Positions 2,950-64,000 of a DNA stretch of 64,000 nt are shown piece by piece (position 1 is the first letter of the stretch; every line of letters begins with the position of its first letter). The stretch lies in the NCBI RefSeq assembly GCF_009914755.1, contig NC_060933.1; one strand, written 5' to 3'. This DNA is from the human T2T-CHM13v2.0 reference genome, Homo sapiens. Under the pieces are notes generated by a model that was not told the DNA's origin, did not search any database, and was given only the letters and a program-made list of their open reading frames with translations. The translations under genes and the position numbers were made by a program.

Positions 2950-3371
<422 letters not shown>

Positions 3372-3534
3372 TTAGATTATAAAATCCAGTTACCTTTTAG
3401 TATGCTCAAAATTGTGTCAAATAATATTAATTCTTGAGTTAATTATGCATTATAAATTATTGTCTCTTAATAAAATTTCACGTACACTTTCACTCTGTAA
3501 AGCTGGAATGCATGTGGAGTTGCTTCAATTTTTC

Positions 3535-3833
3535 TTTTTTGTTTGTTTGTTTGTTTGTTTGTTTGAGACAGAGTCTCGCTCTGTCGCCCAGGCTGGAGTG
3601 CAGCGGTGGGATCTCGGCTCACTGCAAGCTCCGCTTCCTGGGTTCACGCCATTCTCCTGCCTCAGCCTCCTGAGTAGCTGGGACTACAGGCGCCCACCAT
3701 CGCGCCCAGCTAATTTTTCGTACTTTTAGTAGAGACGGGGTTTCACCATGGTCTCGATCTCCTGACCTCGTGATCCACCCGCCTCAGCCTCCCAAAGTGC
3801 TGGGATTACAGGCGTGAGCCACCGCGCCCGGCC
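3535..3833 (-). mobile_element. AluY, Yd-lineage-like (12-bp left-arm deletion)
   Basis: TTTCACCATGGTCTCGATC lacks 12 bp of AluY TTTCACCGTGTTAGCCAGGATGGTCTCG; TSD TCAATTTTTC at 3525-3534 and 3834-3843; (TTTG)n tail. Confidence 0.9.
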
Positions 3834-6011
3834 TCAATTTTTCAATTGTATTTTCACTTTTCTCTTTTTATGCCTACCTAAATTTGTTCCCATAATTGAA
3901 TTTATCATTTAGGAGTGAACTTTTGTTTAGGAAAATGTAATCTTTTTCATCAGCATACTCAATATTTCAATTTTCCATTATAGATTATAAGAATAAATCT
4001 TTAGGTAATATAGGCAAACAAAATTTAATATATAGAATTAGTTTCTTACACGATTGGAGAGTTGGTGGAGCAGGTCTTGGGCTGATCTTCTAAATGATTG
4101 CTAGAACTCCTCCAGAAAAACGACAGAGCTGGGACTGTTGCTCCTTTTGCCATGACTGAGAAGCTGGAGAATCAGGATCTCCTGTGCAACCACTGGCACT
4201 AAAATTATGCTAACTTTGCTATTTGTTTTTTTCCCAGTTTCAAAGTTTATCTTATTAACTTAAAATTTAAACAAAATTGTTAGTCTAAACATCATTAAAT
4301 GTACTAATGGGAAACATATTTACATAGAGAATAATAAAATAATTTTTTGTAACTTGAGGCACATTGTCCATTTTACAAATGTACTTTTAGAAAAACTGCT
4401 TTGAGAAACAATAATTTTTTCTGTCATCCTTCATAAAAGCTAGACACACATTTCTAATGCAAATTTCTTTTTTTTTCTACTTTGATGTGGAAGCTGGGAA
4501 GCTCGAATGTTTGCATTTTAATTTAACAATACGAAGAAAAATTTCATCTGTTTCTCTCTACATTGTTGGCCTTAGACTTACTGTAGCAGCCTCCATTCAT
4601 ATCTCTTACAGGGGTACCTTATAGTTTCATATCAGGTCATTCCTGTTCCTCTTTCCTTTTGTGATGCACCTCTTCTTGCTAAAGATTTTGGTCACTATCT
4701 TTTGTTTTGTGTTTACTTATTTTAGCTTGTATATAAGTTCTGTTCTACACAACATTTCTGATTTACATGGCAGGAAATGTGTGAAACAGTTTGCCACCTT
4801 CCTGACTGATCTGGGCCTAAACTGTGCCCCTATACTTTGAATAAACAGTTGCATTCTCTAACACATATTTTATTTGATCCAAACAATACATTAGTCCAAC
4901 TACCAAACACACATCTTAGATCCTCTGTAGCTGTAACATTTTCAACAGTCATATTTATGGAATCCATCTCCCTCTGTTATGTTTTTATTGTTATCCAAAT
5001 AGAGGAGATAGATATAAATGAACTCACTCTGGTCAGCCAGGGACCACACAGTGGCTTAAGATATCTTAATCCAGGTATCTGCAGACTAACCCTAACCTAA
5101 CAGTGAGTTGCTACCTTTGTTTTTTTTTTTCTCTAAGCATTAAAATACTTCTGTCATAGCTGCTTGCTTCTTGATCATAGGATCTCAGCCATGGTTCATA
5201 TTTGAATAACACAGAATGTTGGCCACAGAACTAAGGACTGGACATTTGGTCATTTGTGACTGTTGTTACAGGAAAGTAAATGGTTTTGTTACACTGCTTG
5301 TCAGGAAAAAGAATAGGAAGGCACCTTCTATCTCAGGCTCTTTTCCTTAAAGAAGGTAGGTTTAATGTAAAACCTGAATTGTGAGTAAGCCTGGGGATAT
5401 CATTTTTAGCTGTTCCAAATTGAGCAAGTTCTTAGTCAAACTACCAGAGTTTTGGAATATACCTGAGTAAGCCAGTCTGAAATAGCCGATGGTCCAGCTT
5501 AAGACTATTCAATATCCATGCACCTGCCTTTTCTAAAGCTTAAACTTCAAAAGAGTAACAGTAACAAGTACATGATCCTGTCAAATATAATTCAAATATA
5601 TGTTGCACAAATTAAAATGCAGTGGTCCTATCCAAAATAGGTATCCATGATATTCACTCCTCTTCGGATTCAGTCTCAACTATGTCTTAATATCCTGAAA
5701 TAAGATAATAAATTATGAAGTTATTCAAACCAGCCTACCCTAAAAATGATGGGAAAAATGGAAGATAAAATAAGACAAACAATTATATACATGACAATGC
5801 AGAAGAGAAGAAAACCCAAGAATGTATTACACACTTAATTTTATAACTGATCATGGAACTGTGGATGGTATTTGTACCATTCTTTTTATATTATTCATTC
5901 CACACTTCTCTATAGTATCCTAAATTATCCAAGTTTCCACAGCAAGAGCCCACTCTTCATGAACAGTGCCCTTAGTTGTCTTGTCAAATTGGAGTTGTTT
6001 TAATCTTCCAT

Positions 6012-43819: not shown

Positions 43820-44560
43820 TATTCAACAAATATTTATTATTCATTTGCTCTATGCCAGAAATGTGTCTTCATGCCAGGTTAAGAAAAAGAGAAAACAGAA
43901 AAAAAAATAGCTGTCCCTGACTAAAAGAGCTTACGTTCTTTCTTTTTGGGCGAGAAAGGCAGTGAAAAATTAAAAAAAGAAACGCAGTATTAACATGCGG
44001 ATAAGTTCTAGGGTGAAATTTGAATGCAGATCCAGAGTGACTGTCTGCCTCTCAAAAGAATTCTGCTGAGATGTCTAGAAGTAAGTAGAGTAGCAAGCAA
44101 ATATCTACAGCGCGTGTCTCTTTCAAAGACAGAAAAACAAAGTGGTTTTTAAGGTGGGTGAATCTTGGCATTTCCAAGAAATATCAGGAGGCTCTTAAGG
44201 ATAGAATGACCAAAACAATGAGGGCTGTGATAAAATAAATTGGGGGAGGTATGGAGAAGGATCCCATATTGTTGCTTTCACAAACAATGACAAGGTTTTG
44301 GGTTTTACTTTGAGAAGGGGAACAATTAGAAAGCTATGAGCAAGACTGTGAAATTATTTGATTTATGTTTTATAATCATTCTGACTCGTGGCTGAAAAAC
44401 AGCCTCTAGGAATGAAAGTGAGAGAAATAGGGTCATCATTTATGAAGCTATTCCAATGATCCAGTGCTTTGGCAGTTGCCTGGACATGGCTAGTAAGAGG
44501 TAAAAGTAATCTGATACATCTTAAAGGCAGGTGTTCATGGATTTGATATGGCAAATGAAA
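43820..44560 (-). mobile_element. L2 3' fragment
   Basis: ATTCAACAAATATTTATT...TATGCCAG (reverse of the L2 3' end) followed by purine-rich L2-like sequence. Confidence 0.55.
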
Positions 44561-46632
44561 GAAAGAAACCGCTATGTGTTATATTCCTTGAGCCAAAATT
44601 GAGGTGTAAAATAAACATGCTCACATAAATGGTTGATTATGTTCTTAAATGAAGGAGAAAATAGTTGCAGTGATGTTAAGTCATCAACCATTTAAAATGT
44701 TGCTTTTGAAAGAGATGAATCAAGGAAGGGATGGACATGAATTTTCCTTACCTAAAAAGCTAGTGAAAATTAAGAGTGACATGAACAGGATTAAAACTTT
44801 ATTTTATAGTGGTACTGAGATGAAACATCACACTATCTGACTTCATAGCTTAAAAATATAATCACCCCACCAACTTCTCACTCTTTTCAAGGATTTTGTG
44901 AGTAACCAGCTTTAATTTGGAAAACCTAGACTTCTACATACAGATTGTTATGTTTGTGAGTATGATTATTTCTATCATTTTGTTTTACATTGTGCTTTAT
45001 CATTCAATAATTAATATCTATCATTTTCCATTAACTAATTTATTTTATGACCATTTATTATTATTATTACCCTATGGTAGTCAATAATTACTGATACATA
45101 TTCCATTGTTTTTTGGGATTTGATATAGAATCAGAGAAGTTTGTTGCCAACTCCTTTTTAGTTGAATATATATTGTTTTTGTCTTATATTTAGTTTTTGT
45201 AAAACTTCAGATTTTCCATCTTGCCCCACTATTTATTGCTAAAAATCATATCCAAATATGACAAGGTTTAGGAACACACACAGTTAATGAACACATGTTA
45301 AAGTATAATAACACAGAATACATTTTTGAAAGTAAGTTTATTAAAATTAGCAATATATTTCTAGTTATATGCATAAGGATATACCAACATGGATTTTGCC
45401 TGCCCAATATTAATTTTCTCTTAATTTCTTACTTACAGAACTTCAATTTGGTCATGAGTCTAAGCCCCAAATTATGTTTGCTGTCGTATACTCATGACAG
45501 CTCTTTTTCTTGATTTTTCTAGCCTTTATCCATTTGGAAATGTGAACCACCTTTTATAGGTGAGATACAGTATAGCTGAACACTTCTCTAAAGGTTTCTG
45601 TAAAAAAGCATAAATGTACAAGCCTATCATCCCGATTCTATTTAGTTTGCCTTGAATATGAATGTGATAAATGAAGTAAGATCTCACATCTTGCAACATG
45701 AAATGGGAGAAGGGTCAACATAGAAGAAATGTCAGAAGAAATGAACCAATAGAAAATTCCTCATTTGCTAAATTTTGTTAAAAGAAAAAAATAGATTTTA
45801 ATATTAATCTGATCTACACAGGCAAATGTTAACTGCAATGAAAATGTCTTTTAGATAATTCAGAACACTTTCCATCCTTGGTAAAAGTATTCATTTTACT
45901 GACTCACTATTATATATTTTGTTAAGTTAGAAACTCATATTCAATCAAAGGAAATAAAAGTTCCCCCTAATTTCTAGGAATATAAAAAAATAGGTACACA
46001 TAGCTTAGATAATATTTTCTATATTTGTTCAAGTAAATCAGTTTAGTAATTGTTTGAAATACTTCCAATTGATATGAGTCCAATTTTAGAAGGAATTTTA
46101 GTTGGAAGTGTTATTCTCTTTATGAAGATGTAAATGGCTCTGTTTACTGGCCAATATTTACATACACATACAGTCAATGAATGTTAATTTGCACACAGTG
46201 GCATATATAATTCAAAGTTCATTTTATTAGTTAATTTAGATATGGTTCAATGAGAGTTTCAAACTGAGGGCATAGAGTCATATAACATACTCTAGAAGAA
46301 CAACTCACAAAAACTAAAATAAATTGCTTTACCATGTTTGCCTTTGTATTTCACTTTTTGTGTTCTGAAGAATAAGCATGGTAAAATTTACATATATCTA
46401 ATGCATATAATGGGCAATGTATGAATTATTTTACAAATTACTCATAACCAGAAGAGTTCTGTTGGATTTTACCATATGGCCAGATTCATCTTGCCTTTCA
46501 AACTTATGTAAGTAATTTTTCCAAATCTCTTTTTTTCCCATAACATACATGCTGCTGAGTCCACTCCTCCAAACTAAGTAAAGATAGGAATGCTCATGGC
46601 CAAATCATAAGTATAGAAAGTGACTTTTGAAC

Positions 46633-47057
46633 TGATGAAGACTTTCTTCTTGTCTACGCTTTAGTCAGGCTTCTAGGAACACTCTTTTTGACTCTACTTT
46701 GTCCTTGGGCCCTGTCTTTACACTGCCTAGTCCAGCTGTTGCAAGAATGCTGCTAAGTCAGTTTAGAGAGAATCTCCCACTCTTGATATCTGATCACTCT
46801 GGCTTGCCTTCAGCAAGAATCCTCTTACGTTAGCTAACAAGAAATCCCCTACCCTTGATGTCTCCTCTTAGTAATTTGTATTCATTGACAACCTTTCACT
46901 CTGCTCATTAGCTGCACTTCCCAGATATCTTTGCTGTGTTCAGAGTTGAACCTTATCTCTCTTGCCTGTTAGAATCATCTTGACACCTATCATTTTAATC
47001 TTAAATAAAGTGATCCTTAACCATTTTAACAAGTGTTGGAAATTTTTTTATTTAGCA
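46633..47057 (+). mobile_element. MER31-like ERV1 solo LTR
   Basis: TG...CA; CTTTAGTCAGGCT, GCAAGAATGCTGCTAAGTCAGTTTAG, CCCTTGATGTCTCCTCTTAGTAAT, AATAAA; 4-bp TSD GAAC at 46629-46632 and 47058-47061. Confidence 0.85.
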
Positions 47058-47200
47058 GAACTAACAAATTGTTTGCGAACTATTGAAATAGAACTATTCT
47101 ATTACGGCCTGCAGATATTTTTCTCAATTATAATTCACTTTCATACTGTGAAAGTATCTTTGCTTTGTGTATATCTTTTTCATATAAAAACTTTTAATTT

Positions 47201-47505
47201 GGCAGGGAATAGTGGCTCATGCCTGTAATCCCAGAACTTTGGGAGGCCCAGACGAGTGGATCATGTAGGTCAGGAGTTGAGACCAGCCTGGCCAACATGG
47301 CAAAACCCCATCTCTACTAAAAGTACAAAAATTATCTGGGCATGGTTGTGGGCACCTGTATTCTCAGGTACTTGGGAGACTGAGGCAGCAGAATCGCTTG
47401 AACCCAGGAAGCAGAGGTTGCAGTGAGCCAAGATCAGACTGCTGCACTCTAGCCTGAGTGATAGAGTGAGTGAGACTCTGTCTCAAAAAACAAAAAACAA
47501 AAAAA
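47201..47505 (+). mobile_element. AluS
   Basis: Full diverged Alu with (AAAAAC)n tail. Confidence 0.94.
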
Positions 47506-50500
47506 CCTTTCGATTTATTTTCCAGAGGTCTATTTTTAATTTAGTAACAAGATTTTAAAAAATATTTATAAAATTAAATAACAATAGAATGTTAGAACTA
47601 GGCCCTATAAAATATAAAATTGTCAAAATTGGTTAGCATGATTGTAGCTTGAAGGATCCTATTGTTAATGTGGCAACTTCTGAAACCAAACATCATCATG
47701 CTTAGCATCAAGAGCTAAAGTAGTCATGAGTTAATGGAGAAGAACAACTAAGGAATTGGCTGCCGAAGTAAAGTTTATGCTAAATTTAAATGAAATGAAA
47801 TAACAAAGTAGTTTGAAATGAACATTCCATTGATTATTTTTAAAATTTTATTTATTAACAAAGTAGCTTATACTAACTGCCCACTGTCTATCCCAATAGT
47901 TACAGCAATAACATATAGTTAACATTTGTAATTAAATATTTCATTTCATACAAATAGTATTTTAAAATTCAAGTGTTGATTTTTAAGCCTTTGAATGTTT
48001 GGCTGTTTAAAATTTAAGTGCATATAAAAATTGTAGAAAAGGGTCATTATTAATAAAATACTCAAAATATGGTAAATTTTGCATGATGATTTAATATATG
48101 CAAATTGACAAGTGATGTGAATAGTACATTTGAATAGAGAAAATATGTACATAAATGAATGGTATTTCAGAATCTAAGCAAATTGATGACTACATTATGT
48201 ACTTGTCCCCAATGTAAATGAAATATTAATTAGAAAACTTTTTTTTTTCACTAAAGGGCTGAACATAAAGTGTGATGGCAAATTGGTGTGTTCTTGTATT
48301 TCTTGTCTTTGGGGATTCTTTTCAGTATATTTTCACTTAATGTTTTAGCAACATTTTTCGTCATCCTTTTACACTTATAGCTGGACTATGCTTAGTGATA
48401 GAAAATAGTTATATAATGGGATTATACTTGGCCATATGAATTTGATGGTATGAGTTAATCTGTGTTTCATCTTACTTGTGTCTACTTGTAAGTCATTGAT
48501 GCTAATGTTATTAGTAATTTTTAGAGGGTAGAAATGTTTTCTATATGACATTTTTGAGAAAAGGAAGTCAATAAATCCCATTTGATATGCAACAGAAATA
48601 AAGATCTCTTATTTCAATTTTAAAATGCTTTATAACTTACATTGCTTTGTTTTATGCATTATTTGTTTTGATCAGATGCAAAATGAGTCAGTAATGTCAT
48701 CTAACCACAAGTTTGATACATTTTTTTAAAGAAAAATTTCCAAAATACTTTAACTGAGCAATAGGCTAATACTTCATAAATTAAAATATTTAAATACTCA
48801 ATCTTTCTGAGTGGATATTTGTTGCATATCTGATAACTTGGCCTAATTCTGTAATTGGGATGAGAACTACCCAATTTTATTGGTAACCTCTTTTCTGCTC
48901 TGCAACTTTGGAAATACTATGGAGGACTCCAAATTCATTTGAGACAAAAATATTAAAAATGTATCCCCTGATTAGGATTTCAGTTCCAAAGCTCTCCTTG
49001 GAGGGATATAGAGCTGGAGAAAATCACATTTATTTTTCGTCTCTTTAATATTGATATATAAAAGTCAGGTTAAAATTAGTATCAAATTGGGAAGCCTGCA
49101 TGGTAAACCGGCTGGAATAATACACTCTGCAATATGAAGGAAAAAGGAAAAATTTAGTTGATTTATTTACCTAACTATAATTTTTTAAAGAATTTTAAGT
49201 TTCTAATAAATTTAACTATAAATTTTTAATTTTCTATCTTTCATTTAGTACCATCTATATAAACTTTTCCAGGCTACTTCTCTGAATCACCTGGCAAAAT
49301 CTTATAATTTACCACCTAATTGAATAAAACACACACACAAAATAATCTATTTTGAATAATAAACATCATTTATAATTATCTTGTTGAGATTGAGAGTAAT
49401 CATCAGGTGTGGAAAAACTATTGAGGAAATTTTAACAATTTAAAATGTAATAATCTTTTTTGTATTATGTGTGTTTTATACTCAGAAGTGCATATGTTTT
49501 ATAAAATTATGTGAATTTATAAATGTGGTCAATATTAATATTAAATTGTATCTTTTAATAGTATCTTCAATTATCTTTTTTTTTGCTGCTGGATTCCATT
49601 TAGAAAAAAAATGTTCTATATAGCAGTGTTGCTTTCTTTTTCTTTTCTTTTTGCTTTTCTTTCTTTTTTCTATTGATAAAGTATTTACTTGATCTTGGGG
49701 AAGAGGTATATAATCAAGTGACCACATTTTTCTTTGTTACATATTATTAAAAATTTATAATCAATCTTTCCAAATTGTAATCGGTCTGAAACCCATTTGC
49801 TTTACTCAAATTATTTAGTGACTGTAAAAGTTTCAGAAACATATGAAAGTTACAAATTAGCTTTAAATGTGTCATGTTTAAAGCAGTTGTTTTAAAAGCT
49901 AAGTCATTATCCATTATTATGTAACTAGTATTCTAAATATCACATCTTTGCATTGTTTGACTTTTAAGGCATATGAAGTGTTTTGGATCAGAGAAATCAT
50001 TTGCTTCACATCCCTAAGAGACAGACTCTATGGGTACTGAGTCATGCTAACAGTGGCAAAACCTGACAAACAATAAGCATCTTTTTCAAATATTTTAAAC
50101 ATTTCACATAAAAATTTACTTTTAGCATACATTGCAGCCATCGAGGAAGCCTAAAGTAAGGAAAACCTCAGTGAAATATGATGAAGTTAATAAAAAGAAA
50201 TAGCCATCATTTTATTTGTTTAAATTGCCATTATCTCTCATATAATTATGTACAATATATAACATAGGATAATTAAGTCAAACTGTGTACCTACAGATAT
50301 GGAGAGCCTTATATTTTAGGAAAAAGTAAAATGTAAATTAACTGGTAAAGATGAGCTTTTCAATCTATAAGGCATAGACACTTTTCCTTGGTGGATTTGA
50401 AAAGGTTCTTATAAATCTGAAAATAAGATAGTTTTTCTATAATAAATGGTAAAAAACACTTTCACATCTTAACCTTATCATAGTATCACAATGCTGGAAT

Positions 50501-50647
50501 GTTTTTACTAGGAAATAAGTAAGCTAATTCAATTATAAATTGCAGTAGAGGAAAGGATGAAGGTTAAAAAACACTATTCAAATCCTTAGTCATGAGGTTG
50601 AATTCATTGAATCAGAGTGTGAATATATATCTATATTTGAGACAGAA

Positions 50648-50682
50648 TGTGTATGTATGTGTGTGAGTGTGAGTGTGTGTGT
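50648..50682. repeat. Imperfect (TG)n microsatellite
   Basis: TGTGTATGTATGTGTGTGAGTGTGAGTGTGTGTGT. Confidence 0.8.
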
Positions 50683-51477
50683 ACAGTCATTAGACATTTG
50701 CCTCATGGACAGTGGAGGAAAACATTTGCTGAGCTGCTTTCCTACCTTAAAGATTTACAACTGCACTGTTTTCAAGATATACTTTCTATATCTCAAATAA
50801 TTTAATATATTATGTTTAGTTGTTGATATAACAAGATATCTGAATACCCCATAATTGAAATTATACCTGGAAATAAATACTTGAAATACTTGCTTCAGTG
50901 ACATTTGTGGAAGTATACTTATTTAAGTTCAAATTATAGGTATATTGAACAAAATGATATTGGATTCTTCACTGGCTGCATACTTCTGAAACTTGTAAAT
51001 AATTTGAAATTAGTTTCCAAGAACAGAAAGACAAATATTAGATAGGAAATACCAAATTCTTAAGATTCATACATATAAAAGTGAAATAAAAATCAAACTT
51101 AATCTTATCATGAATTTTCTACTGTGGCTTAATTTTAGAACTTGTTATAAAAATAGAAATGCTATTAATTTAATTACATTTATTAAAATCTAAAAATAGG
51201 TGATTATAGCTAGGACATTGACAAATGTAACTATACATGAGTAAATATAACTGAGGATAGCAACACATGAAATATATCATAAAATTGAATTATTCTATAA
51301 ATAGTATTAAGTCTGTATTACTTGGAACTTGATTCCACTTAGAATGTCCCTGCTTTTATTTATTTATTTATTTTTGTAAACAAAATGAACAAGAGGTTAT
51401 TACACTTCATTCACTGAGAAAAGGTAACACTACATCAAAGATAACTCACATACTTGCAGAAATATGGAAGGTAGTTC

Positions 51478-51778
51478 TTTCTTTTTTTTTGTTAAGAAAT
51501 AGGGTCTCACTATGTTGCCCAGGTTGTAGTGCAGTGACTATTCAAAGGGGTCATCCCACTACTGATAAGCAGAGGAGTTTTATTCTGCTCAATTTTTGAG
51601 TTGACCACTCCTTAGGCAACCTGGTGGTCTTCTGCTCCCTGGAAGCTAACATATTGATGCCAAACTTAGTGCAGACACTTCATCAGCATAGTGCATACAA
51701 CCCAGAACTCCTGGGCTCAAGTGTTCCTCCCGCCTCAGCATCCTGAGTAGCTGGGACAACAGGTGTGTGTCACCTGGC
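51478..51778 (-). pseudogene. RN7SL: 7SL (SRP) RNA processed pseudogene
   Basis: Contains the S-domain that Alu lacks: ATCCCACTACTGAT.AGCA.GGAGTTTT, CTCCTTAGGCAACCTGGTGGTC, CATATTGATGCC.AACTTAGTGC.GACAC; Alu-domain ends; poly-T 51478-51493; many substitutions. Confidence 0.95.
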
Positions 51779-52005
51779 TGAAAGGTATTTTTAAATACAA
51801 ATGTTGTCCAGGAGTGACAGAAGCTGGAGAATTGGACTACTTGATGGAGGCTTTGTACAAGCTTTGAACAATAATAACAACAAAATTGAAATGCCAAAAA
51901 TATTGTTTAATTAGCAGTTAACCACCAATAAAAGGAAGCCAGCCATTTCACACAGAGGATTTTGTTAATTGATTGCGTGATTCAAGGAAATAATATTATT
52001 AGGTG

Positions 52006-54410
52006 TGTATTAGTCCATTATTGCATTGCTATAAAGAAATACCCGAGATTGAGTAATTTATAAAGAAAAGAGTTTCAACTGACTCACAGTTCTGCATGCT
52101 GTACAGAAAGAATGTTGCATCTGCTGGGCATGTGGGGAGGCCTCATGAAATGTATAACCATGGTGGGAAAATGAAGAGGGAGCCGGTGCTTCATATAGCG
52201 GGGAGCAGGAAGAAAAGTGAGAGGTGAGGAGGTGCTACACCCTTTTAACAACCAGATTTCATAATAACTCACTCACTCACTATCATAAGAATAGCACCAA
52301 GGAAATGGTATTAAACCATTAAAAAGAAACCACTCCACAATCCAATAACCTCCCATCAGGCCCCACCTCCAACACTGGGTATTACAATTTGACATGAGAT
52401 TTGGTTGGGGACATAGATCCAAACCATATTATTTTGCCCTAGTCCCTCCCAAATTTTGTCTTTCTCAGTTTGCAAAATATAATCATGCCTTCCCATCAGT
52501 CCCTCAAAGTCTTAACTCACTTCAGCATTAACTCAAACATCCAAAGTCTAAAGTCTTATCTGAGATGAGGCAAGCCCCTTCTGCCTAAGACCCTGTAAAA
52601 TTAAAAAAAAAAAAACACCCAAGATATAATGTATAATGGGGGTACAGGGATTGGGTAAATACTCCCATTTCAAAAGGGAGAAATTGGCCAAAAGTAAGGG
52701 GCTACGGGCCCCATGCAAGTCTGAAACCCAGTAGGAAAGTTATTAAGTCTTAAAGCTTAACAATCTCCTTTGACGCCATCCAGGGCATACCACTGCAAGG
52801 GGTGAGCTCCCAAAGCCTTGTGCTGCTCCACTCCTGTGACTTTGCAGGGTTCAGCTCCCACAGCTGCTCTCAAGGGCTGGTGTTGAGTGCTTGCACCATT
52901 TCCAGGCACACGGTACAAGTGCTGGTGGATCTACCATTCTGGGGTCTGGAAGATAGTGTCCCTCTTCTCATAGTTCCCCTAGATAGTGGTCCAGTAGGGA
53001 CACTGTGTGGTGGCTCCAACCCCACCTTTCCCCTCTTCAGTGCCCTCGTAGAGATTCTCCATCAGGGCTCTGACCCTGCAGCAGATTTCTGACTGTACAT
53101 CTAGGTTTGTTCATACATTCTCTGAAATCTAGCCTCAACTCTTGTACTCTGTGCACCCTCAGGCTTAATGCCACATGGAAGCCATCAAGACTTATGGCTT
53201 GAACCCTCTGGAGCAGCATCCTGAGCTGTACCTGGGCCACTTGGAGCCATGGCTAGAGCTGCAACAGATGAGATGCATGTAGTAGTGTCCCATTCTTCCT
53301 TCGTTGTCCTCTGAGCCTGTGATGGGAGGAGCTGCCGCAAAGGTCTCTGAAATGCCCTGGAGGGTATCCCTCATTTTCTTGGCTATCAGCATGTGCCTTC
53401 CTTTTAGTTAAGCAAGTTTCTGCAGCTTGCTTGAATTTCTCTCCTGAAAATGGGCTTTTTGTTCTACCACATGGCCAGGCTGCAAATTTTTCAAGTTTCT
53501 ACACTCTGCTTCCCTTCTAAATATAAGTTTCAGTTTGAGGTCATTTCTTTGCTCACACACATCAAAATAGTTTGTCAGAAGTAGTGAGCTTACCTCCTGA
53601 ATGCTTTGCTGCTTAGAAATTTTTTCCACCAGATACCCACCAGAACTTGAGATACTCTCAAGTTCAAAATTCCACAGATCCCTAGGGCAGACCCACAGTG
53701 CAGCCAACCTTTTTGCTAATGCCTAACTAAAGTGACCTTTGCTCCAGTTCCCATTAAGTTCCTTATCTCCATCTGAGACCTCCTCAGCCTGGACTTCATT
53801 GTGTGTCTCTATCAGTAGCTTGGTCACAACAATGTAACAAGACTCTAGTAAGTTCAAAACTTGCCCTCATCTTCCTGTCTTCTTCTGATCTCTCCAAACC
53901 CTTCCAATCTCTGCCCACTATCCAGTTTCAAAGCCACTTTCACATTTTCCGGTATGTTTACAACAATATCATATTCCTCTACCAATTTTCTATATTAGTC
54001 CTTTCTTACATTGCTCTAAAGAAATACCTGAGACTGGGTAATTTATAAAGAAAAGCAGTTTAATTGGCTCATGGTTCTGCACGTTATACAGAAAGCATGA
54101 TGCATCTGCTGGGCTTCTGCGGGGGCCTCAGTAAGCTAACAATCATGGCAGAAGGTGAAGGGGGAGCCAGCACTTCACATGGCTGGAAGCAGGAAGAAGA
54201 GTGAGAGGTGGGGAGGTGCTATACACTTTTAACAACCAGACTCACAATAACTCACTCACTGTCACAAGAACAGCACCAAGGAGATGGTGCTAAACCATTT
54301 AAGAGAAACCGCCCAATGATCCAATTGCCTCCCAACAGGCCCTACCTCTAACAGTGGGACTTACAGTTTGACATGAGATTTGGGTGGGGACACAGATCCA
54401 AATGATATCA
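52006..54410 (-). mobile_element. Full-length MSTA-like MaLR: LTR 52006-52431, internal, LTR 53991-54410
   Basis: Two ~425-bp LTRs (TGTATTAGTCC...ATATCA type) around ~1.56 kb of internal sequence; 5-bp TSD AGGTG/ATGTG. Confidence 0.93.
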
Positions 54411-56507
54411 ATGTGTTAAAAGGAAAAGGAGATAGCAGTGGGAAATGGATATTTAACTTCAGTTTATGAGTTTTTATTTTAGAGTTCTAAAATTATGTCT
54501 TATACTGCCTATACAAGTGCTAGAATAGTTTCTGTATTAAGTGGTAGATATTAATATCCAAATATCATACTTACCTTCTTTGACCTTGCAGTTTAAGACG
54601 GCATTTTAAGAAAGTAAACAAACACATTGATTTTTTTTTTAAAGGAGACATTTTTCAGTAAAGGATATAAGTATGTTAACATGAGAGATATAGAAAAATT
54701 ACAGATGGACAGACAATCCTACATAGAAACCTAAGGAAGTATTTAACTCAGACACAGAGATTGAGAAGAGTAAAGTGGGTGAAATCTGGGAAAGAATGCT
54801 TCCAGTAGAAGAAACAGAATATTGAAGGAACAGAGATTGATGTCAAGAGTTCAGGGAAACAAACCAGAATAAGAATGTTTAGACAAAAGGCTGATGGTAG
54901 AAGGAAATTAAGACTGAAAGTTATAGAGAGCACAGGCTTACTCGAAAATTAGTAGACAAAAGAACATCTGTAAGTTCAATCATGAAGGAGTGCCAGAATT
55001 AAAGAGAAAATAAGGAAATAATAAAGGGAATCTTTTGATGTGAGGAACCAATTGGGCTACCAACTCAGCCTGCCAGCCTGCCATTCCAGTGACAGTAGGA
55101 AATAAATGTTCTGTAAGTTATTTGGAAATTAGAGGACAAAGTAATTGTTTGTTCTATAGGTAGAGAAGCATTTTTGTAAATGATAATACAGCTGTTCTAC
55201 CGATTTCTCTTAATTTTCAAAATTTTTGAAGGGGTACACATTTTCATGATTTGTTCATTCTGATTTCCAACTCATATTTGTTCATCATTTTCTCTTTACT
55301 TTTTAAAAAGTTGAAAGACATTCGTGTCACAAAATTTTCACAGGATAATTTTTCTAGTTGCAACTGTAGATTTATGTGGATATATACAAATCTCTCTAGT
55401 GACACATCTAAAGATTAATGTTATGTTCTGTTCCATAGGGAGCAAATATACCACATGAAACATTGCAACTATGAATCCAACTAGACTGTATGGGAAACAT
55501 ATATTGAAAAATAAATTAAAATTATAAGTTCTATGAGAAAACACAAACATTTGAGTAAAAAAATGAGAAAGGTTTAGTGGTGACTTCTTCCCATGTTAGA
55601 AAAAAGGATTCATAATGAACAACTTTTTTTTCATGTATTTCCTACAATTGAGTAAAATAATAGGACTAGGTAAGTTTACTGGTTTGCATTTTTTCATCTG
55701 GGTCTGGTTTTTCATTTCAATTGTTAGCCATTGTATTAACTACTTTCACCATTCAAAGGAATGAATGATCTGCCATAGTATTTTCTGCAGTTCCATCTCT
55801 TGTTTTCAGTATCATTCCAATTCTGCATCTATCTAATTTTGATCTCTGTTCTATTTATTTTCCTGATTCATAACATTTTGCTTTGTGCTGAGCTCCTAAT
55901 TGTCTCTCTGTCATTCTCAACATTTTAGCCCTATGGTCTAAAAGATGCCCAAAAGAATGTAGCATATTCTAGTATATCAGTGGGACAACATAAACAACTT
56001 GCTTAATTGTTAATCTATTTAAAAATGAAACAGTGTTTTTCATTTTTTCAATCAATTTAATGCTGACTAGATCCTATAACTACATTCTACTTTTTATAAC
56101 TAAAGAACTCCAGAAAAATAAATGTAATAGCTTTGCTGGAAAAGATTAACCTTACAATGCCTTCCTAATGCCCTTACTTTTTTTTTTTTTTGAAAAGTGT
56201 TTTCTGGTACACAAAAATAATATTCTGAAATATCTCTCTGATATTTGATTGCCGGATTTAACCTACATACCTCTGAACCTTGGTTTTTCAGACATGCAAA
56301 CTGCTTAACAAGTTCCAATGCATTAATCAATGCACCATTGCATAACTTACAGTAAGAAAAGTTGGTAGATATTTCAGCAATGCCATAAAATATGCTTCCA
56401 TTTAACACTTTGAGACAACCAATACACTATTTATATTATTGAGACAAAACAAACCTAAGATCACAGAAAAATATTTATTTTAATAGAATGGTATTTAAGT
56501 AGATAGT

Positions 56508-56799
56508 TTTTTTGTTGTGTTTTTGTTTGTTTGTTTGTTTGTTTGTTTTTGAGATGGAGTCTCCCTCTGTCGCCCAGGTTGGAGTTCAGTGGCCCAGTCT
56601 TGGCTCACTGTAACCTCCCCTTCCCAAGTTCAAGCAGTTCTCCCTGCCTCAGCCTCCTGAGTAGCTGAAATTACAGGCATGCACCACCACGCCTGTTTAA
56701 TTTTTGTGTTTTTAGTAAAGATGGGATGTCACTATGTTGGCCAGGCTCGTCTTGAACTCCTGACCTCAGGTGATCTGCCCACCTTGGCCTCCCAAAGTG
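56508..56799 (-). mobile_element. AluS (Sx-like), 5'-truncated by ~30 nt
   Basis: Ends at CCCAAAGTG; TSD TAAGTAGATAGT at 56496-56507 and 56800-56811; (TTTG)n tail. Confidence 0.95.
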
Positions 56800-57070
56800 T
56801 AAGTAGATAGTCTAAATGATTATGGGTTTCAATAGGTTTTGTTAATTTGTTTTAGTTGACATACAAGAGCACTACAAAACCACATTATTTTATTTTAATT
56901 TTTACCAGTAAACTTCATTATATTAAAGGCCATATTGCCCACTGAATATGATTTTGATAAGCACAACTTCTATAATTTACAACTTACTGTATATGGTCTA
57001 ATATAAATTACATTTAGCTATCTTGAATAAAAGATACGAATCGCCAAAAACTTAATATATAAAATAATTT

Positions 57071-57168
57071 CTACAATCAATTAAGCCACATGGGGCCTGG
57101 TGTGCAAGGGCTGCAAACAGCAGCATCCTAGGTAGTGTGCAGCAGCCTGTTCCTTGCGTACAACAGCC
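57071..57168 (+). pseudogene. SNORA70: Degenerate retrocopy of H/ACA snoRNA SNORA70 (U70)
   Basis: CAATTAAGCC...CATGGGGCCTGGTGTGCAAGGGCTGCAAACAGCAGCATCCTAGGTAGTGTG...GCAGCCTGTT matches SNORA70 as recalled; H box ACAGCA 57117-57122; ACA at 57163; deletions in both hairpins. Confidence 0.85.
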
Positions 57169-57217
57169 TTTGCCATTGGACATTTATGTCTTGGATCTAG
57201 TGCTTTCCCTAGTCTAG

Positions 57218-57580
57218 GTTTAAGACCGGATGTAGTATGCCTTTGGAAAGCCTCAGGACCCAGAGGTCAGAGTTCACATTGGCCATGTTCATCCATACCA
57301 AGCTGCAAACCCTGGAGCATGTGACTGAGGCCTTATTTAGGGCCAAATTCAAGTTCAGTGAATGCCCAAAAAGCCACATCTCAAAGAAGTGCGATTTTAC
57401 TAAGTTTAATGCATATACATTTTAAGACTTGGTGGCTGAGAAACAACTCATCCTGGATGGCTGTGGGGCCAAATATAGCCCTGGAATCATGGGCCCCTGG
57501 ACAAGCAGCTAGCCCTGCATTAGAAAAGAGCTGCCCCCTCTTTACGCATGCCCACCAGTGAATTCTATTTCCTGTACATC
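57218..57580 (+). pseudogene. RPL10: Partial processed pseudogene of RPL10 (uL16): last two coding exons and 3' UTR
   Basis: [44 protein letters not shown] aligns to RPL10 [45 protein letters not shown]; continues VAEKQLILDGCGAKY; upstream frameshift and TAA at 57423; no intron at the last junction (~57371). Confidence 0.93.
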
Positions 57581-57601
57581 TAATAAATCAATCTATTTAT
57601 G

Positions 57602-57602
<1 letters not shown>

Positions 57603-57645
<43 letters not shown>

Positions 57646-57650
57646 ATCTA
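57603..57650. repeat. (TCTA)n tetranucleotide STR
   Basis: About 10 ATCT units at 57603-57645. Confidence 0.95.
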
Positions 57651-60006
57651 AATAATTCAATAATATGCAGTAGATTAAAAAAATAAACACAACTTGATGT
57701 CTAACTACTGTGGATATATTTTGTCAGTTATTAACATTCCCCTTTCAGGTTAATATCAAGTCAACAAAAATTTGGAGTTCTCTTGACCCTTTCCCCAATG
57801 TGTAAATTAGTAATATAATGTCAATATTCAGACAGGCAAATAAACTAAGCTCCCTTTGATGAAAACGACATGCAGTAACGCTTCCCTACTGAGAATCATC
57901 TTAGTTTGTGAAATCATAATCTGGAATGGCTATATCTGCAAAATACATTAAAAGAAAGAAAATATGAAAAACATAATCTACAATACTTTTATGTATATCT
58001 AATCATTTTATATTTCTTTTTTATTATACTACTTGAAATACATACATAAAGGATAAAGAGTTTCAACAAATCTCAAAAAGGAAACCTAATTATGTATAAT
58101 ATTCTGACTGATTTTGTTTGCTCACCAAATTGAAATTGAAAAGAAAAAATACAGCACTCTATAAAAAAAAAAGATTTCAAAATATAATTATTGTCTCCCT
58201 TTGAAAATATAAATGTTTAAATAATGGTGAAATAGAGAACATAAACATTCACAAATATTACATATCCATTCAACATTTTCAGGTATTATTTTGTTTTGTT
58301 CAAACCTCCCCTTCTGTCATTTTTCTCTCCTTTCTTTATCTTTAGCATAACTGAGCTGCTTTCCAAACATCTATAGTTATACCAGACATAGCATTTTCCA
58401 ACATCAAACATGGTTTTTCTTAAACACCAGCTCCAAATATTAATTCCCAGGGAAAATGACATTTTCCATATATGAGAAATATTGGAACCGATATAACAAA
58501 ACTCATTAACATTTATAACATTTGAAAATAATTTCACAAAAGTTTTATTTAAAAAATTATATTGTAAATTTATGTAAGAAATTCTCTATCCATTATATGA
58601 CTTGTATAACATCCACAGTATACTAAGAAAATATTTTTAAAATATAGGATAAGTTGTCTAAATAATAAATTTTTAAGACTGCTTAGAGCCACTATTAAAA
58701 ATCTGAGAATAAAGCATGAATATTTTTTGATCTATAGAGATTATATATCAGCATGCTGGCATTGGCTTTTATTACAGAATAAGCATTTTAATCTTCATTC
58801 ACTCTCATCAATTCACTACAGAAAGCAGCTTAAAAAAAAAGACCATCACTTGTAGAAAACAGTTAGTATTTCGATGGTTTACCTGGAAGTTTACTGGGCA
58901 TAAATTTATAAAATACATTTATTGATGGAAATAAACTGTTTTACTAAACAATATTACAGAATTCTGAATAGATGCTGATTAAGCAGCAAATCAACAAAAC
59001 TGTTTATTTACCAGTTTGGTGGCTATTATGCTAATTAGATCATCTGTTTAAAATGTGTCCATATGGACAATTTTTCTGTAAATGTTTTCTTTATCTCCAC
59101 ATTGTGTGGTAGTATTTTCATATAACCAAGTAGAAATTAACTTAAAAATTAGTTATTTAAAGATGACAATAGAAGGTTTTGAACTTTGAGTTCCAAAAGG
59201 CAAGCAAATATTTCTGAAATAAAATATATTATATATATTTAATTTCTAATTTAATTTACATATGAAATATTTTTAAAATTCAAATGAATTTGAGCTATTT
59301 TCACATTGATTGGACTGTTTTTGTACCTCATTTTGCTTGGTCACACTAAAGTGAGATTCATCATCTTGTGGCACCAAAGGAAAACCAGTGTGATTATAAG
59401 GAAATTATTATAGTTAGACAACTGTGCATTAATTTCATCATTAAGGACCAAACATGTATACAGATATAAATACTTTTCTCAATACATTACTTGCAACATA
59501 TGCACAATTATGTAACAATTATGGTGAACTAAGTCTCCTAGAAATTTCCAAAATAATTTTTTTGTCTTTTTTAACCTCTAAATCCATATAAATCAAGGGA
59601 AAATATTCTTGCACATATGTATATTTAAACATGAACCTAGTCAAAAGTAAGAGAAATTTTAAAAAGTATAACATATCAAAATGTGGAAATTTCTGTGTTT
59701 AGGGAAAAATCTATCCCATTAAGAGCTTGCATTAGAAAAGAAAAATTACCTTGAAATTATGATGAAAGCTTCCAACTTGTTATTATAAAAATGAGAACAA
59801 ATTAATTATGAAGCAATCAGAAAGAAGAAAATAATAAAGGTTAATGAAGAAATAAACAACATTAAATGGAGAAAAATTATATAGCTAAGTAAATTAAACT
59901 AAATTTAGATCTTTGAAGGGATCAATACAATTGTTAAATCTCTGGCCAGACTAAGGAGAAAATAATAGGAAATAAATAATTTACAAATTTTAAGAACGAT
60001 AGAAGT

Positions 60007-60309
60007 GGCTGGGGGTGGTGGCTCATGCCTGAAATCCCAGCACTTTGGGAGGCCGAGGCAGGCGGATCGTTTGAGGTCAGGAGTTCCAGACCAGCCTGGC
60101 CAACATAGTGAAACCCTGTCTCTACTAAAAATACAAAAATTAGCTGAGCGTGATGGCGCATGCCTGTATTCCCAGCTACTCGGGAGGCTGAGGCACAAGA
60201 ATTGCTTGAAGCTGGGAGGTGGAATTTGCAGTGAGTAGAGATCAGGCCACTGCACTCAAGCCCGGGCGACAGAACGGGACTCTGTCTCAAAACAAATAAA
60301 CTACAAAAA
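60007..60309 (+). mobile_element. AluS
   Basis: Full Alu; TSD AAGAA(C/T)GATAGAAGT at 59992-60006 and 60310-60324. Confidence 0.95.
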
Positions 60310-60609
60310 AAGAATGATAGAAGTAACATTTCCGTTGTCCTACAACAGTTTAAGGATAACTAAATGAATACCATGATGAAATTTATAAATGTAAATTAGT
60401 TAATTTAGATTAAGTGTATAAATCCCTCAAAAGACACAAACTAAGGCAAACTCAAAAAGAAAGCAATAACATGCACATCCCTATATATCTGTTTTAAATT
60501 TATTAATACCCACCTAGATAAACGAACTGACAAATTTTACTAATATTTAAGGAGATATAATTTATACATTACACAAAAGTTTAAGAAATAAAAAAGAGGA
60601 AACACTTTT

Positions 60610-61870
<1,261 letters not shown>

Positions 61871-62449
61871 TGAGTCTACCATTACCCCCATACCAAAACC
61901 ATAAAAACGACATTACAAGAAAATGTCCTGTAGACAAATATGTATTTAGATGATGAATTTAGATTTCAAAAACTTCAGCAAAATATTATCCAATTAAATC
62001 CTCTCATGTATGTGTGTGTATGTGTGTGCATGCACGTGTGTTTGTAAAATATATCATTACTAATTGGCATTTATCTTGGGAGTTCAAGATGGTTTCCATA
62101 TTCAATCAACCCATCAATGTGGACTATGGTCACTTGCAAAGACCAGCAAATCCTCTACACAAAAGGCCACTAGAAATTCATTAAAACAGCCTTCCATCAC
62201 TCTCGAAATTGACCAAAGCATTCAACTACCTGAGAAATATTTATGTTTGGAAAGCTATTGAAATGCAATTAAAAATATCAGGAAACCTGTTTTTACCTTT
62301 TGTCCTAATCTTGCTAAATCCTTCTTAATTTTAGGAGACACTGCTTCTCCTTCCACTGTTCTTTTACTTTCTCCTTCCCCTTTGTTTTTGCCTCCCTCTT
62401 CCTCTCCCTTTTCTACATTCCTTCTCTCTCCTAAATGCTGTATAAATTT

Positions 62450-63110
62450 CTACATATATAATCATATTATTTACAAATAGGAACAGTTTTACTTATTTCT
62501 TTCCAGTCTGCATTTATTTTATTCTTCCTTTTTTTCCTTACACACTGGATAGAACTCTAAGTATTATGTTGAAAAAGAGTGATAAAAGCAAACATCTTTG
62601 CTTTATTCCTGAGCATACATGTGGAAAACATTCAGTGTTTCACAGCTAAATATGATGGATTTTTTGTATGCTCTTTATCAAGATGAAGGAATTTTCTGCT
62701 ATTTCTGGTTTGCTGAATTTTTATCACAAGTAACTGTTGAATAGTGTCTTTTTCCCCTGCATTTATTGTACTGTTCATGCATTTTCCTATTTTAGAATAT
62801 TAATATGATGAACTATATTATTAGATCTTTTAAAATATTGCAACTGTCTTGCATTTCTGGAATAAACATGGCTTGGTCATGTGTCACTTTTTTACATAGT
62901 GTCGTATTCAAGTTGTTGAGGATTTTGCATCTAGGGTATATTTGTAGATTTGCATCTAGGTTATGTTGGTCTAAAGTTTTGTTTGTTTGTTTTCCTTTTC
63001 TTTTTTTTATCATCTTTGTCTTCTTCTGTTTAAGTGTCATGCTTGCTTCATAAAATGAATTGAGAAGCATTTCTTCCTCTTCTGTTTCTCGAAAATTGTA
63101 GAGAACTCTT
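62450..63110 (-). mobile_element. Ancient L1M ORF2 (RT region) remnant
   Basis: Minus-strand remnant EEEEMLLNSFYEASMTL...DQAMFIPEMQ. Confidence 0.75.
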
Positions 63111-63169
63111 GTTTTTTTTTTTTGTTGTTTGTTTGTTGTTTTGTTTTTTCTTATTTTTATCCTCATACT

Positions 63170-64000
63170 GAGAACCAAACAGTCTGGAGTGTAAAACATG
63201 GTTCCTCATTCCAGTTAAATCTAGTACACAATGACAACAACCCTCTTGGGTTAAGCATTGGCCTACTAACAGAAAAAAACCTTCAGGGAGATAGATGCTG
63301 ATCTAGGCATTGTGAGAAAAGCTGAATTCATTTTTAATCATGAATGGCTTTTAAGGAAAGAAGATTTATTAACTAAAATAAATAGATTAGAGGGAATTCT
63401 CATCTATGAGAGAGGAAGGGATGGGGATTCAACCTGGAAAAAAATGATGAAGTTTTAGTGAACTTGGTAAGGTAGACTCAACAATTAATGATGGATAATG
63501 CTAGGACCCAACACTGGTAATGAGCTTGTATTATGACTCAATAGCATCACTTTATCACTTTAACACAGATGGAGGCCTAAATAACCATAAGGTAATGGTT
63601 CTTCTTAGATGCAGAAGGACACATTTATATAATCTTAGGGACCCCATCTCTGAGGTCACTCATAACTTATATTAATTCATTGTTATTGCCATTGCCCCAA
63701 GAATAGATAAGGATAAGACATCCTGTAGTACAGGTAGCAGAGATATAAACTATTCTTATTCTTGTGTCTTGTCTATAGGAAGGGAGTGTATCCTGGTGTA
63801 TGACAGCATATAGTAGAGACCATTGTCAATTAGGGCCTGTGAACTAAGACAAGGTGACTGGCTAAGTCCACAACCCATTAGAAACCCAGAAATAATCAAA
63901 TCATGCTGAGTAGTAATAACACTTATTTATAATACTATATGGTATAAAGACAAGAACCAATTATGTTGAGTAGCTGTAACAAATAGCTCTATCATTCATA
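63170..64000 (-). mobile_element. Possible ERVL/MaLR internal remnant
   Basis: Composition and weak pol-like similarity only; family not resolved. Confidence 0.25.

What the first reader, a model, noticed from the sequence alone, without database searches (positions are those of the whole stretch)
57062..57657. Retrocopy of a snoRNA-headed, intron-retaining, spliced and polyadenylated RPL10 RNA (SNORA70-RPL10 chimera)
Seen in sequence, in order: SNORA70-like sequence from its 5' end (57071-57168, H box and ACA kept); a 49-nt intron tail ending in a pyrimidine-rich tract and AG (57169-57217); RPL10's last two coding exons already joined (~57371); the 3' UTR; an A-rich tail; and a candidate TSD AAATAATT (57062-57069 and 57650-57657). 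Established: SNORA70 is hosted in an RPL10 intron, and snoRNA retroposons carrying downstream host exons are a described class. Inference: the template was neither mRNA nor mature snoRNA. It was an RNA whose 5' end was defined and protected by the H/ACA snoRNP, with that intron's 3' splice site unused but the next intron spliced. This is fossil evidence that such a snoRNA-ended poly(A) RNA existed in the germline and was an L1 substrate. The class is known, so this is an instance and not a new system; the copy itself is probably non-functional because both hairpins carry deletions.
Basis: partly seen in the sequence, partly recalled or inferred. Interest (0 to 1): 0.85.

Follow-up and report, generated by a model that had tools for sequence, protein, structure and literature searches.

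The report
Old SNORA70-RPL10 retrocopy, known class
This is a decayed, non-functional retrocopy of an RPL10 RNA that began at the SNORA70 snoRNA, a type of insertion first described for this gene in 2006, so it is ordinary.

Summary
Rfam finds SNORA70 at 57071-57165 (42.4 bits, model 1-135). Alignment to the RPL10 gene on X shows the intron tail ending in AG at 57217, exon 6 at 57218-57371, and exon 7 from 57372 with the 75-nt last intron absent. The 3'UTR ends at the usual poly(A) site, and an 8-nt repeat AAATAATT flanks both ends. Nothing upstream of 57071 matches the intron. One detail is wrong: the tail is not A-rich but an (ATCT)16 microsatellite.

Weber 2006 (PLoS Genet) named these Type-3 U70 snoRTs, counted 30 in human, and proposed the same template RNA. 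My genome search gives 17 other copies starting at snoRNA nucleotide 1, 11 starting inside the snoRNA, 9 exon-only and none starting further upstream.

New here:
- This copy is among the oldest (K2P about 0.23 to the parent).
- It did not insert at this chr9 site. It lies in a duplicon of at least 20 kb, with a chr4 copy at about 135.09 Mb (94-97% identical) and eight copies at 97-99% on chr9, 13, 14 and 21.
- One of the two hairpin deletions arose after the split from the chr4 copy.

Interest is low.

The parts
57062..57069 (+). 5' target-site duplication AAATAATT. It is preceded by ..tatat and an A, so the site reads AT|AAAATAATT, one mismatch from the L1 endonuclease top-strand consensus TT|AAAA.
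   Evidence: Searches give the sequence. One search gives the chance test. One search shows it in all 10 paralogous copies. The consensus is taken from Weber 2006, section 15.
57071..57165 (+). SNORA70-derived segment, from model position 1 to 135, with 15-16 nt lost from hairpin 1 and 23-24 nt lost from hairpin 2. The T at 57070 matches the parent base just before the snoRNA and may be the true first base of the insert. The 3' end is uncertain by about 3 nt (57165-57168) because of a small insertion after the ACA.
   Evidence: 42.4 bits; parent 161.8 bits; which deletions are shared; fold no better than shuffles, z +0.71.
57166..57217 (+). Tail of the penultimate RPL10 intron downstream of the snoRNA, 52 nt against 48 nt in the parent. 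It ends in a pyrimidine-rich stretch and AG, so the 3' splice site was not used.
57218..57371 (+). RPL10 exon 6 (penultimate exon), 154 nt against 163 nt in the parent. It carries a 1-nt deletion near its start and an 8-nt deletion, and the reading frame is broken.
57372..57582 (+). RPL10 exon 7: the end of the coding sequence and the 3'UTR, joined directly to exon 6. AATAAA has mutated to AGTGAA at about 57557-57562. Homology ends at ..cctgtacatcta, the poly(A) site seen in younger copies.
57583..57649 (+). Remnant of the poly(A) tail (ATAAATCAA..) overgrown by an (ATCT)n microsatellite. Its length differs among the paralogous copies, from about 3 to about 17 units.
57650..57657 (+). 3' target-site duplication AAATAATT.

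Best explanation
This is a Type-3 U70 (SNORA70) snoRNA retroposon in the sense of Weber 2006.

How it arose. Long ago an RPL10 transcript was cut upstream of SNORA70 in the penultimate intron and trimmed 5'-to-3' until the assembled H/ACA snoRNP stopped the exonuclease. Its downstream part had the last intron spliced out and was polyadenylated at the normal RPL10 site. The L1 machinery reverse-transcribed this RNA into an AT|AAAA-type target and made an 8-9 nt target-site duplication. That the template had these ends and this splicing is shown by the sequence. That cleavage, trimming and L1 produced it is inferred.

What happened next. The insert decayed. The reading frame broke, AATAAA was lost, and a 24-nt deletion removed part of hairpin 2. 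The poly(A) tail turned into an (ATCT)n microsatellite.

How it reached this window. The insertion did not happen at this chr9 site. The copy arrived inside a segmental duplication of at least 20 kb whose most divergent member lies on chr4 at about 135.09 Mb. A further 15-nt deletion in hairpin 1 then occurred. The block then spread to six chr9 pericentromeric sites and to the short arms of chr13, 14 and 21.

Function. It has no function as a snoRNA or as a coding sequence.
For: Anatomy matches the class:
- it starts at snoRNA nucleotide 1;
- it carries the whole downstream intron tail;
- exons 6 and 7 are joined with the 75-nt intron gone;
- it ends at the usual poly(A) site;
- it is flanked by AAATAATT (chance test: 131 of 20000, 17 of 20000 and 5 of 5000).

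The start point is shared genome-wide. One search searched with the parent stretch L031:3100-3647 and listed 40 matches (48 candidates, 40 scored):
- 1 is the parent;
- 17 start at query 198-207, where snoRNA nucleotide 1 is query 203;
- 11 start inside the snoRNA;
- 9 start at exon 6;
- 2 belong to the window's own family;
- 0 start further upstream in the intron.
One search shows the 17 beginning with CTGCAG-like sequence and flanks unrelated to the intron.

Published class and mechanism. Weber 2006 (PMC1687206; sections 8, 14 and 15 read) reports that 30 of 42 human RPL10 processed pseudogenes are Type-3 U70 snoRTs, 18 with the entire snoRNA and 12 with a partial one.

A living RNA counterpart exists. 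RPL10-SNORA70 full-length and 3' polyadenylated fragments were seen in nanopore data and by ddPCR (PMC12152556, passages read).

Duplication history:
- One search finds nine further loci: eight at 98-99% and the chr4 locus at 90%.
- Flanks are shared over 3.6 kb, at 97.1-98.8% for the eight and 94.0% for chr4.
- The same ten loci match window 44000-48000 and 61900-63900.
- The TSD and the hairpin 2 deletion are shared by all ten, while the hairpin 1 deletion is in nine and absent from chr4.

Decay:
- K2P distance to the parent is 0.228, second highest of the 31 copies measured.
- There are stops in all three frames.
- SNORA70 scores 42.4 bits against 161.8 for the parent.
- The fold z-score is +0.71.
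Against: - The TSD is only 8 nt and lies in 84% A+T sequence, so on its own it is modest evidence.
- No recognisable poly(A) run survives.
- No empty orthologous site could be examined, because no other mammalian genome is on hand. The insertion date and the direction of the chr4-to-chr9 duplication are therefore inferred from divergence only.
- DNA cannot show whether the template's 5' end was uncapped and bound by the snoRNP.
[quoted passage not shown] The RNA species observed in cells may therefore not be identical to the retroposed one.
Confidence: 0.93

Rival explanations
1. It is a retrocopy of a full-length, intron-retaining RPL10 pre-mRNA that was randomly truncated at its 5' end, because L1 reverse transcriptase fell off and happened to stop at the snoRNA start.
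For: 5' truncation is common for L1-mediated inserts (established knowledge). Eleven of the copies do start inside the snoRNA, and Weber 2006 (section 8) attributes those to arrest of the reverse transcriptase. Full-length RPL10-SNORA70 intron-retaining transcripts exist (PMC12152556, passages read).
Against: In one search, 17 independent copies plus this family start within about 5 nt of snoRNA nucleotide 1, and none of the 40 listed matches starts anywhere in the 202 nt of intron upstream that the query covered. Random truncation would scatter the ends. A reverse transcriptase moving 3'-to-5' along the template would meet the snoRNP at the snoRNA's 3' side first, not at its 5' end (inference).
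Confidence: 0.03
2. The template was a capped transcript that started at an internal promoter at or near the 5' end of SNORA70 in the RPL10 intron, not an exonuclease-trimmed RNA.
For: This would also give a fixed 5' end. DNA sequence alone cannot tell a cap from a snoRNP-protected end.
Against: The start coincides with the first position of the Rfam model to within about 1 nt in 15 of 17 copies, as expected from snoRNP-limited trimming. The base before the start is G in only 4 of 17 copies, so there is no excess of the extra G that reverse transcription of a cap often leaves (recalled knowledge). Weber 2006 (section 14) reports that all three snoRT types, from many snoRNAs, share 5' ends matching the mature snoRNA, which a set of coincident promoters would not explain.
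Confidence: 0.03
3. It is a DNA-level partial duplication of the RPL10 gene, or a template-switch chimera that joined a mature snoRNA to RPL10 mRNA.
For: This copy was indeed later moved as DNA by segmental duplication. Template-switch chimeras are a known product of L1 (cited in PMC1802619, passage read).
Against: The 75-nt last intron is precisely absent, which excludes a DNA copy of the gene. The 48-52 nt intron tail lies colinear between the snoRNA and exon 6. A join between a mature snoRNA and a spliced mRNA would lack it.
Confidence: 0.01

Closest known systems
Type-3 U70 snoRNA retroposons (snoRTs) of RPL10, Weber 2006, PLoS Genet 2:e205 (PMC1687206)
   Same: Every defining part is shared: a start at the 5' end of the mature snoRNA, the entire downstream intron sequence, the processed last two exons, a tail and a TSD at an L1-type site. 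Gene and species are the same. My count in T2T (plus this family) is 18 copies starting at nucleotide 1 and 11 partial, against Weber's 18 and 12.
   Different: Nothing differs in kind. This copy is older and more decayed than most, its tail has become a microsatellite, and it exists as ten paralogous copies through segmental duplication. It is not among the 21 U70 copies in Table 1 of Luo and Li 2006 (PMC1802619, table rows read), which has none on chr4 and only one on chr9, at about 119 Mb.
SPA and cytoplasmic SPA lncRNAs (5' snoRNA-ended, 3' polyadenylated RNAs), as reviewed in PMC11028025
   Same: The inferred template has the same architecture and the same proposed origin: a snoRNP blocks a 5'-3' exonuclease and the downstream part is polyadenylated.
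   Different: The known natural SPAs are headed by C/D box snoRNAs. The 2024 review (passages read) says H/ACA-headed SPAs are so far only 'theoretically' possible, apart from an engineered swap. Here the RNA itself is not observed, only its DNA fossil.
RPL10-SNORA70 snoRNA-retaining transcripts, full-length and 3' forms (PMC12152556; class defined in PMC9394076)
   Same: These are polyadenylated RPL10 RNAs that retain the SNORA70 intron, including 3' fragments that end 'in proximity to' the snoRNA. They were detected in nanopore data and by ddPCR in human cells, tissues and plasma.
   Different: The passages I read do not give the exact 5' nucleotide of the RPL10 3' form. For EIF4A1 the 5' end lies in the upstream exon, not at the snoRNA. 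No germline data appear in the passages read.
Ordinary RPL10 processed pseudogenes
   Same: They share spliced exons, the same poly(A) site and L1-mediated insertion.
   Different: They carry exon 5 joined to exon 6 and have no snoRNA or intron tail. Nine such copies were seen.

Membership tests
Type-3 U70 snoRT (Weber 2006) | The 5' end coincides with the 5' end of the mature snoRNA | tested here: met
   Rfam model position 1 aligns to 57071. There is no intron homology upstream. The chr4 paralogue starts with the same bases after the same flank.
Type-3 U70 snoRT (Weber 2006) | Contains the entire intron sequence downstream of the snoRNA | tested here: met
   57166-57217 aligns to parent positions 3437-3484 and ends in AG.
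Type-3 U70 snoRT (Weber 2006) | The downstream exons are processed (last intron removed) | tested here: met
   The exon 6 / exon 7 junction lies at 57371/57372 and is colinear with the spliced parent. The 75-nt intron is absent.
Type-3 U70 snoRT (Weber 2006) | Poly(A) tail at the host gene's polyadenylation site | tested here: inconclusive
   Homology stops at the same site as in younger copies that have clear A tails. Here only ATAAAT(CAA) remains, followed by (ATCT)16.
Type-3 U70 snoRT (Weber 2006) | TSD abutting the insert, at an L1 endonuclease-like site | tested here: met
   An 8-nt exact repeat, with chance estimates of 0.1-0.7%. The site reads AT|AAAA. The repeat is kept in all 10 paralogues. 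It is shorter than the 13-16 bp mode Weber reports.
Functional H/ACA snoRNA SNORA70 (Rfam RF00156) | Score at or above the Rfam gathering score | tested here: met
   42.4 bits against 40, which is barely above. The parent scores 161.8. One paralogue falls below, at 39.4.
Functional H/ACA snoRNA SNORA70 (Rfam RF00156) | Two intact hairpins with guide pockets, flanked by H and ACA boxes | tested here: not met
   16 of 26 and 23 of 34 model positions at the hairpin tops are missing. The minimum-energy fold is not hairpin-hinge-hairpin and is no better than shuffles, with z +0.71 and 151 of 200 shuffles folding at least as well. H-like and ACA motifs remain.
SPA-type RNA as the template | A 5' end without a cap, bound by snoRNP proteins, plus a 3' poly(A) tail | not testable with these tools
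   Only the DNA copy is available. The architecture is consistent.
Segmental duplication | Paralogous copies share flanks well beyond the element, at high identity | tested here: met
   Flanks are shared over 3.6 kb at 94.0-98.8%. The same ten loci match window 44000-48000 and 61900-63900.

The most novel reading that the evidence does not exclude
Type-3 U70 snoRTs, this one included, are genomic fossils of a natural H/ACA-headed SPA-type RNA made from RPL10. A 2024 review of snoRNA-derived RNAs still calls that species only theoretically possible. In the germline this minor RNA was also a better L1 template than the far more abundant RPL10 mRNA: plus this family gives 29 snoRNA-headed copies against 9 exon-only copies. 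That ratio hints that the H/ACA snoRNP, or a cytoplasmic dyskerin-bound state of the RNA, favours capture by L1. The explicit link between Type-3 snoRTs and SPAs did not turn up in my two searches. Those searches used few terms and cover only the held library, so this does not show that the link is out of print.
Probability: 0.5. Interest if true: 0.35.

Novelty: already known. Interest (0 to 1): 0.12.

Why it matters
It matters little on its own.

Two small uses remain. First, the RefSeq table given for the window annotates only the snoRNA-like 95 nt as an uncharacterised pseudogene and lists no RPL10 pseudogene here. The whole 57062-57657 element, and its nine paralogues, could be labelled as a SNORA70-RPL10 Type-3 retrocopy. 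Second, the family as a whole, not this copy, remains the best DNA evidence that an H/ACA-headed polyadenylated RPL10 RNA existed in germ cells. This fits recent reports of RPL10-SNORA70 intron-retaining 3' fragments in human cells.

Tried and rejected
- Downstream poly(A) site. The global alignment paired TGTATCTA in the window's tail with genomic sequence downstream of the RPL10 poly(A) site, which suggested read-through to a later site. I rejected this. The motif occurs only in the window copy; the other nine paralogues lack it. Younger copies all end at parent positions 3932-3938.
- Residual snoRNA function. Rejected on the two hairpin deletions and the fold.
- Residual coding capacity. 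Rejected because all three frames carry stops.
- Dating by orthologues. Not possible, because only this genome is searchable for eukaryotes. The age is therefore an inference from K2P of about 0.23. That figure comes from local BLAST segments, which trim divergent ends and so understate the distance.
- Weber's supplementary lists were closed, so I cannot say whether this exact copy was counted there.
- Earlier findings of this scan were not open.
Full report
**What is there**

An Rfam scan of 56000-58700 gives one SNORA70 hit at 57071-57165 on the + strand. It scores 42.4 bits against a gathering score of 40, with E 3.6e-06. It spans model positions 1-135, but most of both hairpin tops are missing. 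This is the same span as the cmsearch pseudogene LOC124900281 in the gene table supplied with the finding.

The window's own genome could be searched. The query 57062-57657 found the RPL10 exons on X, and I fetched that region as L031. In L031:
- SNORA70 lies at 3302-3436 (161.8 bits).
- The rest of the penultimate intron is 3437-3484.
- Exon 6 is 3485-3647.
- The last intron is 3648-3722 (75 nt).
- Exon 7 starts at 3723.
- AATAAA is at 3913-3918.

**Alignment to the parent**

A global alignment of the window to the unspliced parent, read together with the raw sequence, gives the following:

| Part | Window coordinates |
|---|---|
| snoRNA | from 57071 |
| intron tail, ending ..tctag | to 57217 |
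| exon 6 | 57218-57371 |
| exon 7, joined directly with the 75-nt intron absent | from 57372 |
| AATAAA, decayed to AGTGAA | about 57557 |
| end of homology (..cctgtacatcta) | 57582 |

Younger RPL10 retrocopies start their A tails at the same parent positions, 3932-3938. Nothing upstream of 57071 matches the intron. AAATAATT occurs at 57062-57069 and 57650-57657. An anchored repeat at least this long arose in 131 of 20000 composition shuffles, 17 of 20000 random site pairs in the window, and 5 of 5000 AT-rich site pairs. The site reads AT|AAAATAATT, close to the ttAAAA top-strand consensus that Weber gives for snoRTs.

The stretch 57576-57649 has A at 23 of 74 bases and T at 34 of 74, and it is an (ATCT)16.2 microsatellite. 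Only ATAAAT(CAA) is left of a poly(A) run.

**It is a known class**

Weber 2006 (PMC1687206; sections 8, 14 and 15 read) defines Type-3 snoRTs. [quoted passage not shown] The paper singles out U70/SNORA70 in RPL10. Of 42 human RPL10 processed pseudogenes, 30 are Type-3 U70 snoRTs, 18 with the entire snoRNA and 12 with a partial one.

Luo and Li 2006 (PMC1802619; Table 1 rows and passages read) list 21 U70-related copies and show a retrogene type carrying exon-derived 3' sequence.

**Check of the shared start, done here**

I searched the genome with parent L031:3100-3647, in which snoRNA nucleotide 1 is query position 203. It listed 40 matches, from 48 candidates of which 40 were scored, so the counts are lower bounds:
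- 1 is the parent.
- 17 start at query 198-207.
- 11 start inside the snoRNA, at query 228-288.
- 9 start at exon 6, at query 384-399.
- 2 belong to the window's own family and match in exon 6 only.
- None starts in the 202 nt of intron upstream of the snoRNA.

Printing the junctions shows 15 of the 17 beginning CTGCA or CTACA, directly after flanks unrelated to the intron. With this family added, that makes 18 full-length and 11 partial insertions, close to Weber's 18 and 12. This pile-up argues against random 5' truncation. The colinear intron tail argues against a template-switch chimera. The missing last intron argues against a DNA copy of the gene.

**History of this particular copy**

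One search found nine further loci holding the element with its flanks: five on chr9 and one each on chr13, 14 and 21 at 98-99%, plus chr4:135091920-135092459 at 90%.

Over the 3.6 kb fetched around each, identity to the window is 97.1-98.8% for the eight and 94.0% for chr4. The same ten loci match window 44000-48000 and 61900-63900, with chr4 at 97%. The duplicon therefore covers at least about 20 kb of the window. On chr4 those two pieces lie about 79 kb apart, against about 18 kb here.

A multiple alignment shows:
- both TSD copies and the 24-nt hairpin 2 deletion in all ten loci;
- the 15-nt hairpin 1 deletion in the nine non-chr4 copies only;
- two private deletions in the chr4 copy;
- (ATCT)n lengths from about 3 to about 17 units.

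SNORA70 scores follow the same pattern: chr4 61.3 bits, the others 39.4-45.2, and the window 42.4.

So there was one retroposition event. A DNA duplication followed, most simply from chr4 to the chr9 pericentromere; that direction is inferred, because chr4 is the most divergent copy and the only one that is not pericentromeric or acrocentric. Recent spread came after that.

**Age and decay**

K2P distance to the parent is 0.228 for the window copy and 0.218 for the chr4 copy. The window copy ranks second highest and the chr4 copy third highest among the 31 copies measured. These are local alignments, so the values are underestimates. With a recalled mammalian neutral rate of about 2e-9 per site per year, this puts the insertion on the order of 1e8 years ago, before the primate radiation. 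This is inference, because no orthologues were available.

The copy is dead. There are stops in all three frames, the poly(A) signal is lost, and the remaining snoRNA sequence folds no better than shuffles (z +0.71).

**Link to RNA seen in cells**

Polyadenylated RPL10 transcripts that retain the SNORA70 intron have been reported from nanopore data and ddPCR, both full-length and as 3' fragments ending near the snoRNA (PMC12152556, passages read). Dyskerin-bound cytoplasmic H/ACA intron-retaining fragments are described in PMC9394076 (passages read).

A 2024 review (PMC11028025, passages read) notes that all natural SPA RNAs known so far are headed by C/D box snoRNAs and that H/ACA-headed ones are still expected. 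The U70 Type-3 family is DNA evidence for such an RNA. That is the most novel reading left, but Weber described the same RNA in other words in 2006.

**Verdict**

The novelty is nil at the level of class and mechanism.

**Limits**
- No non-human eukaryotic genome was available.

Noticed in passing
L038, L043, L044, L049, L050, L053, L058 and three places without a locus id: The 'partial' SNORA70-RPL10 retrocopies do not start at random. Nine of 11 start at query 241-260, which is snoRNA nucleotides 39-58, the 3' side of hairpin 1 up to the H box. Weber attributes partial copies to arrest of the reverse transcriptase. A second protected 5' end, with hairpin 2 plus ACA still bound by the snoRNP, would fit as well.
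   Followed up: partly
L031 3303, against L033-L060 and window 57072: Position 2 of SNORA70 is C in the T2T parent (CCGCAG), but none of the 17 independent full-length retrocopies, nor this family, has C there. It is T in 16 of the 17 and in this family, and A in one (L046). The Rfam consensus has U. Either the parent changed T to C after the youngest copy (about 3% diverged), or the CpG decayed in every copy.
   Followed up: no
L033-L060 junctions and window 57070: The base just before snoRNA nucleotide 1 is T in 10 of 17 independent copies and in this family, and the parent also has T there. The binomial tail for 11 of 18 is 0.006 at a T frequency of 0.30 and 0.02 at 0.35. Many templates probably began one base upstream of the Rfam model start.
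   Followed up: partly
window 44000-63900; chr4:135016565-135097476: The window lies in a segmental duplication with ten copies: six on chr9, one each on chr13, 14 and 21, and one on chr4. On chr4 the two tested pieces are about 79 kb apart, against about 18 kb here, so about 60 kb is missing from the chr9 version or was added on chr4. Weber 2006 mentions a similar pattern of chr9 (five copies) plus chr4 for a distant U109 snoRT.
   Followed up: partly
window 58728; L002, L003, L004: Three chr9 paralogues carry an Alu-like insertion of about 300 bp at the position matching window 58728. It gives Metazoa_SRP and mir-1268-type hits and is absent from the window and from the other six copies.
   Followed up: no
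window 56549-56699, minus strand: An Alu element lies about 370 bp upstream of the retrocopy. It appears as sub-threshold Metazoa_SRP (33.3 bits) and mir-1268 (29.8 bits) hits. It is ordinary.
   Followed up: no
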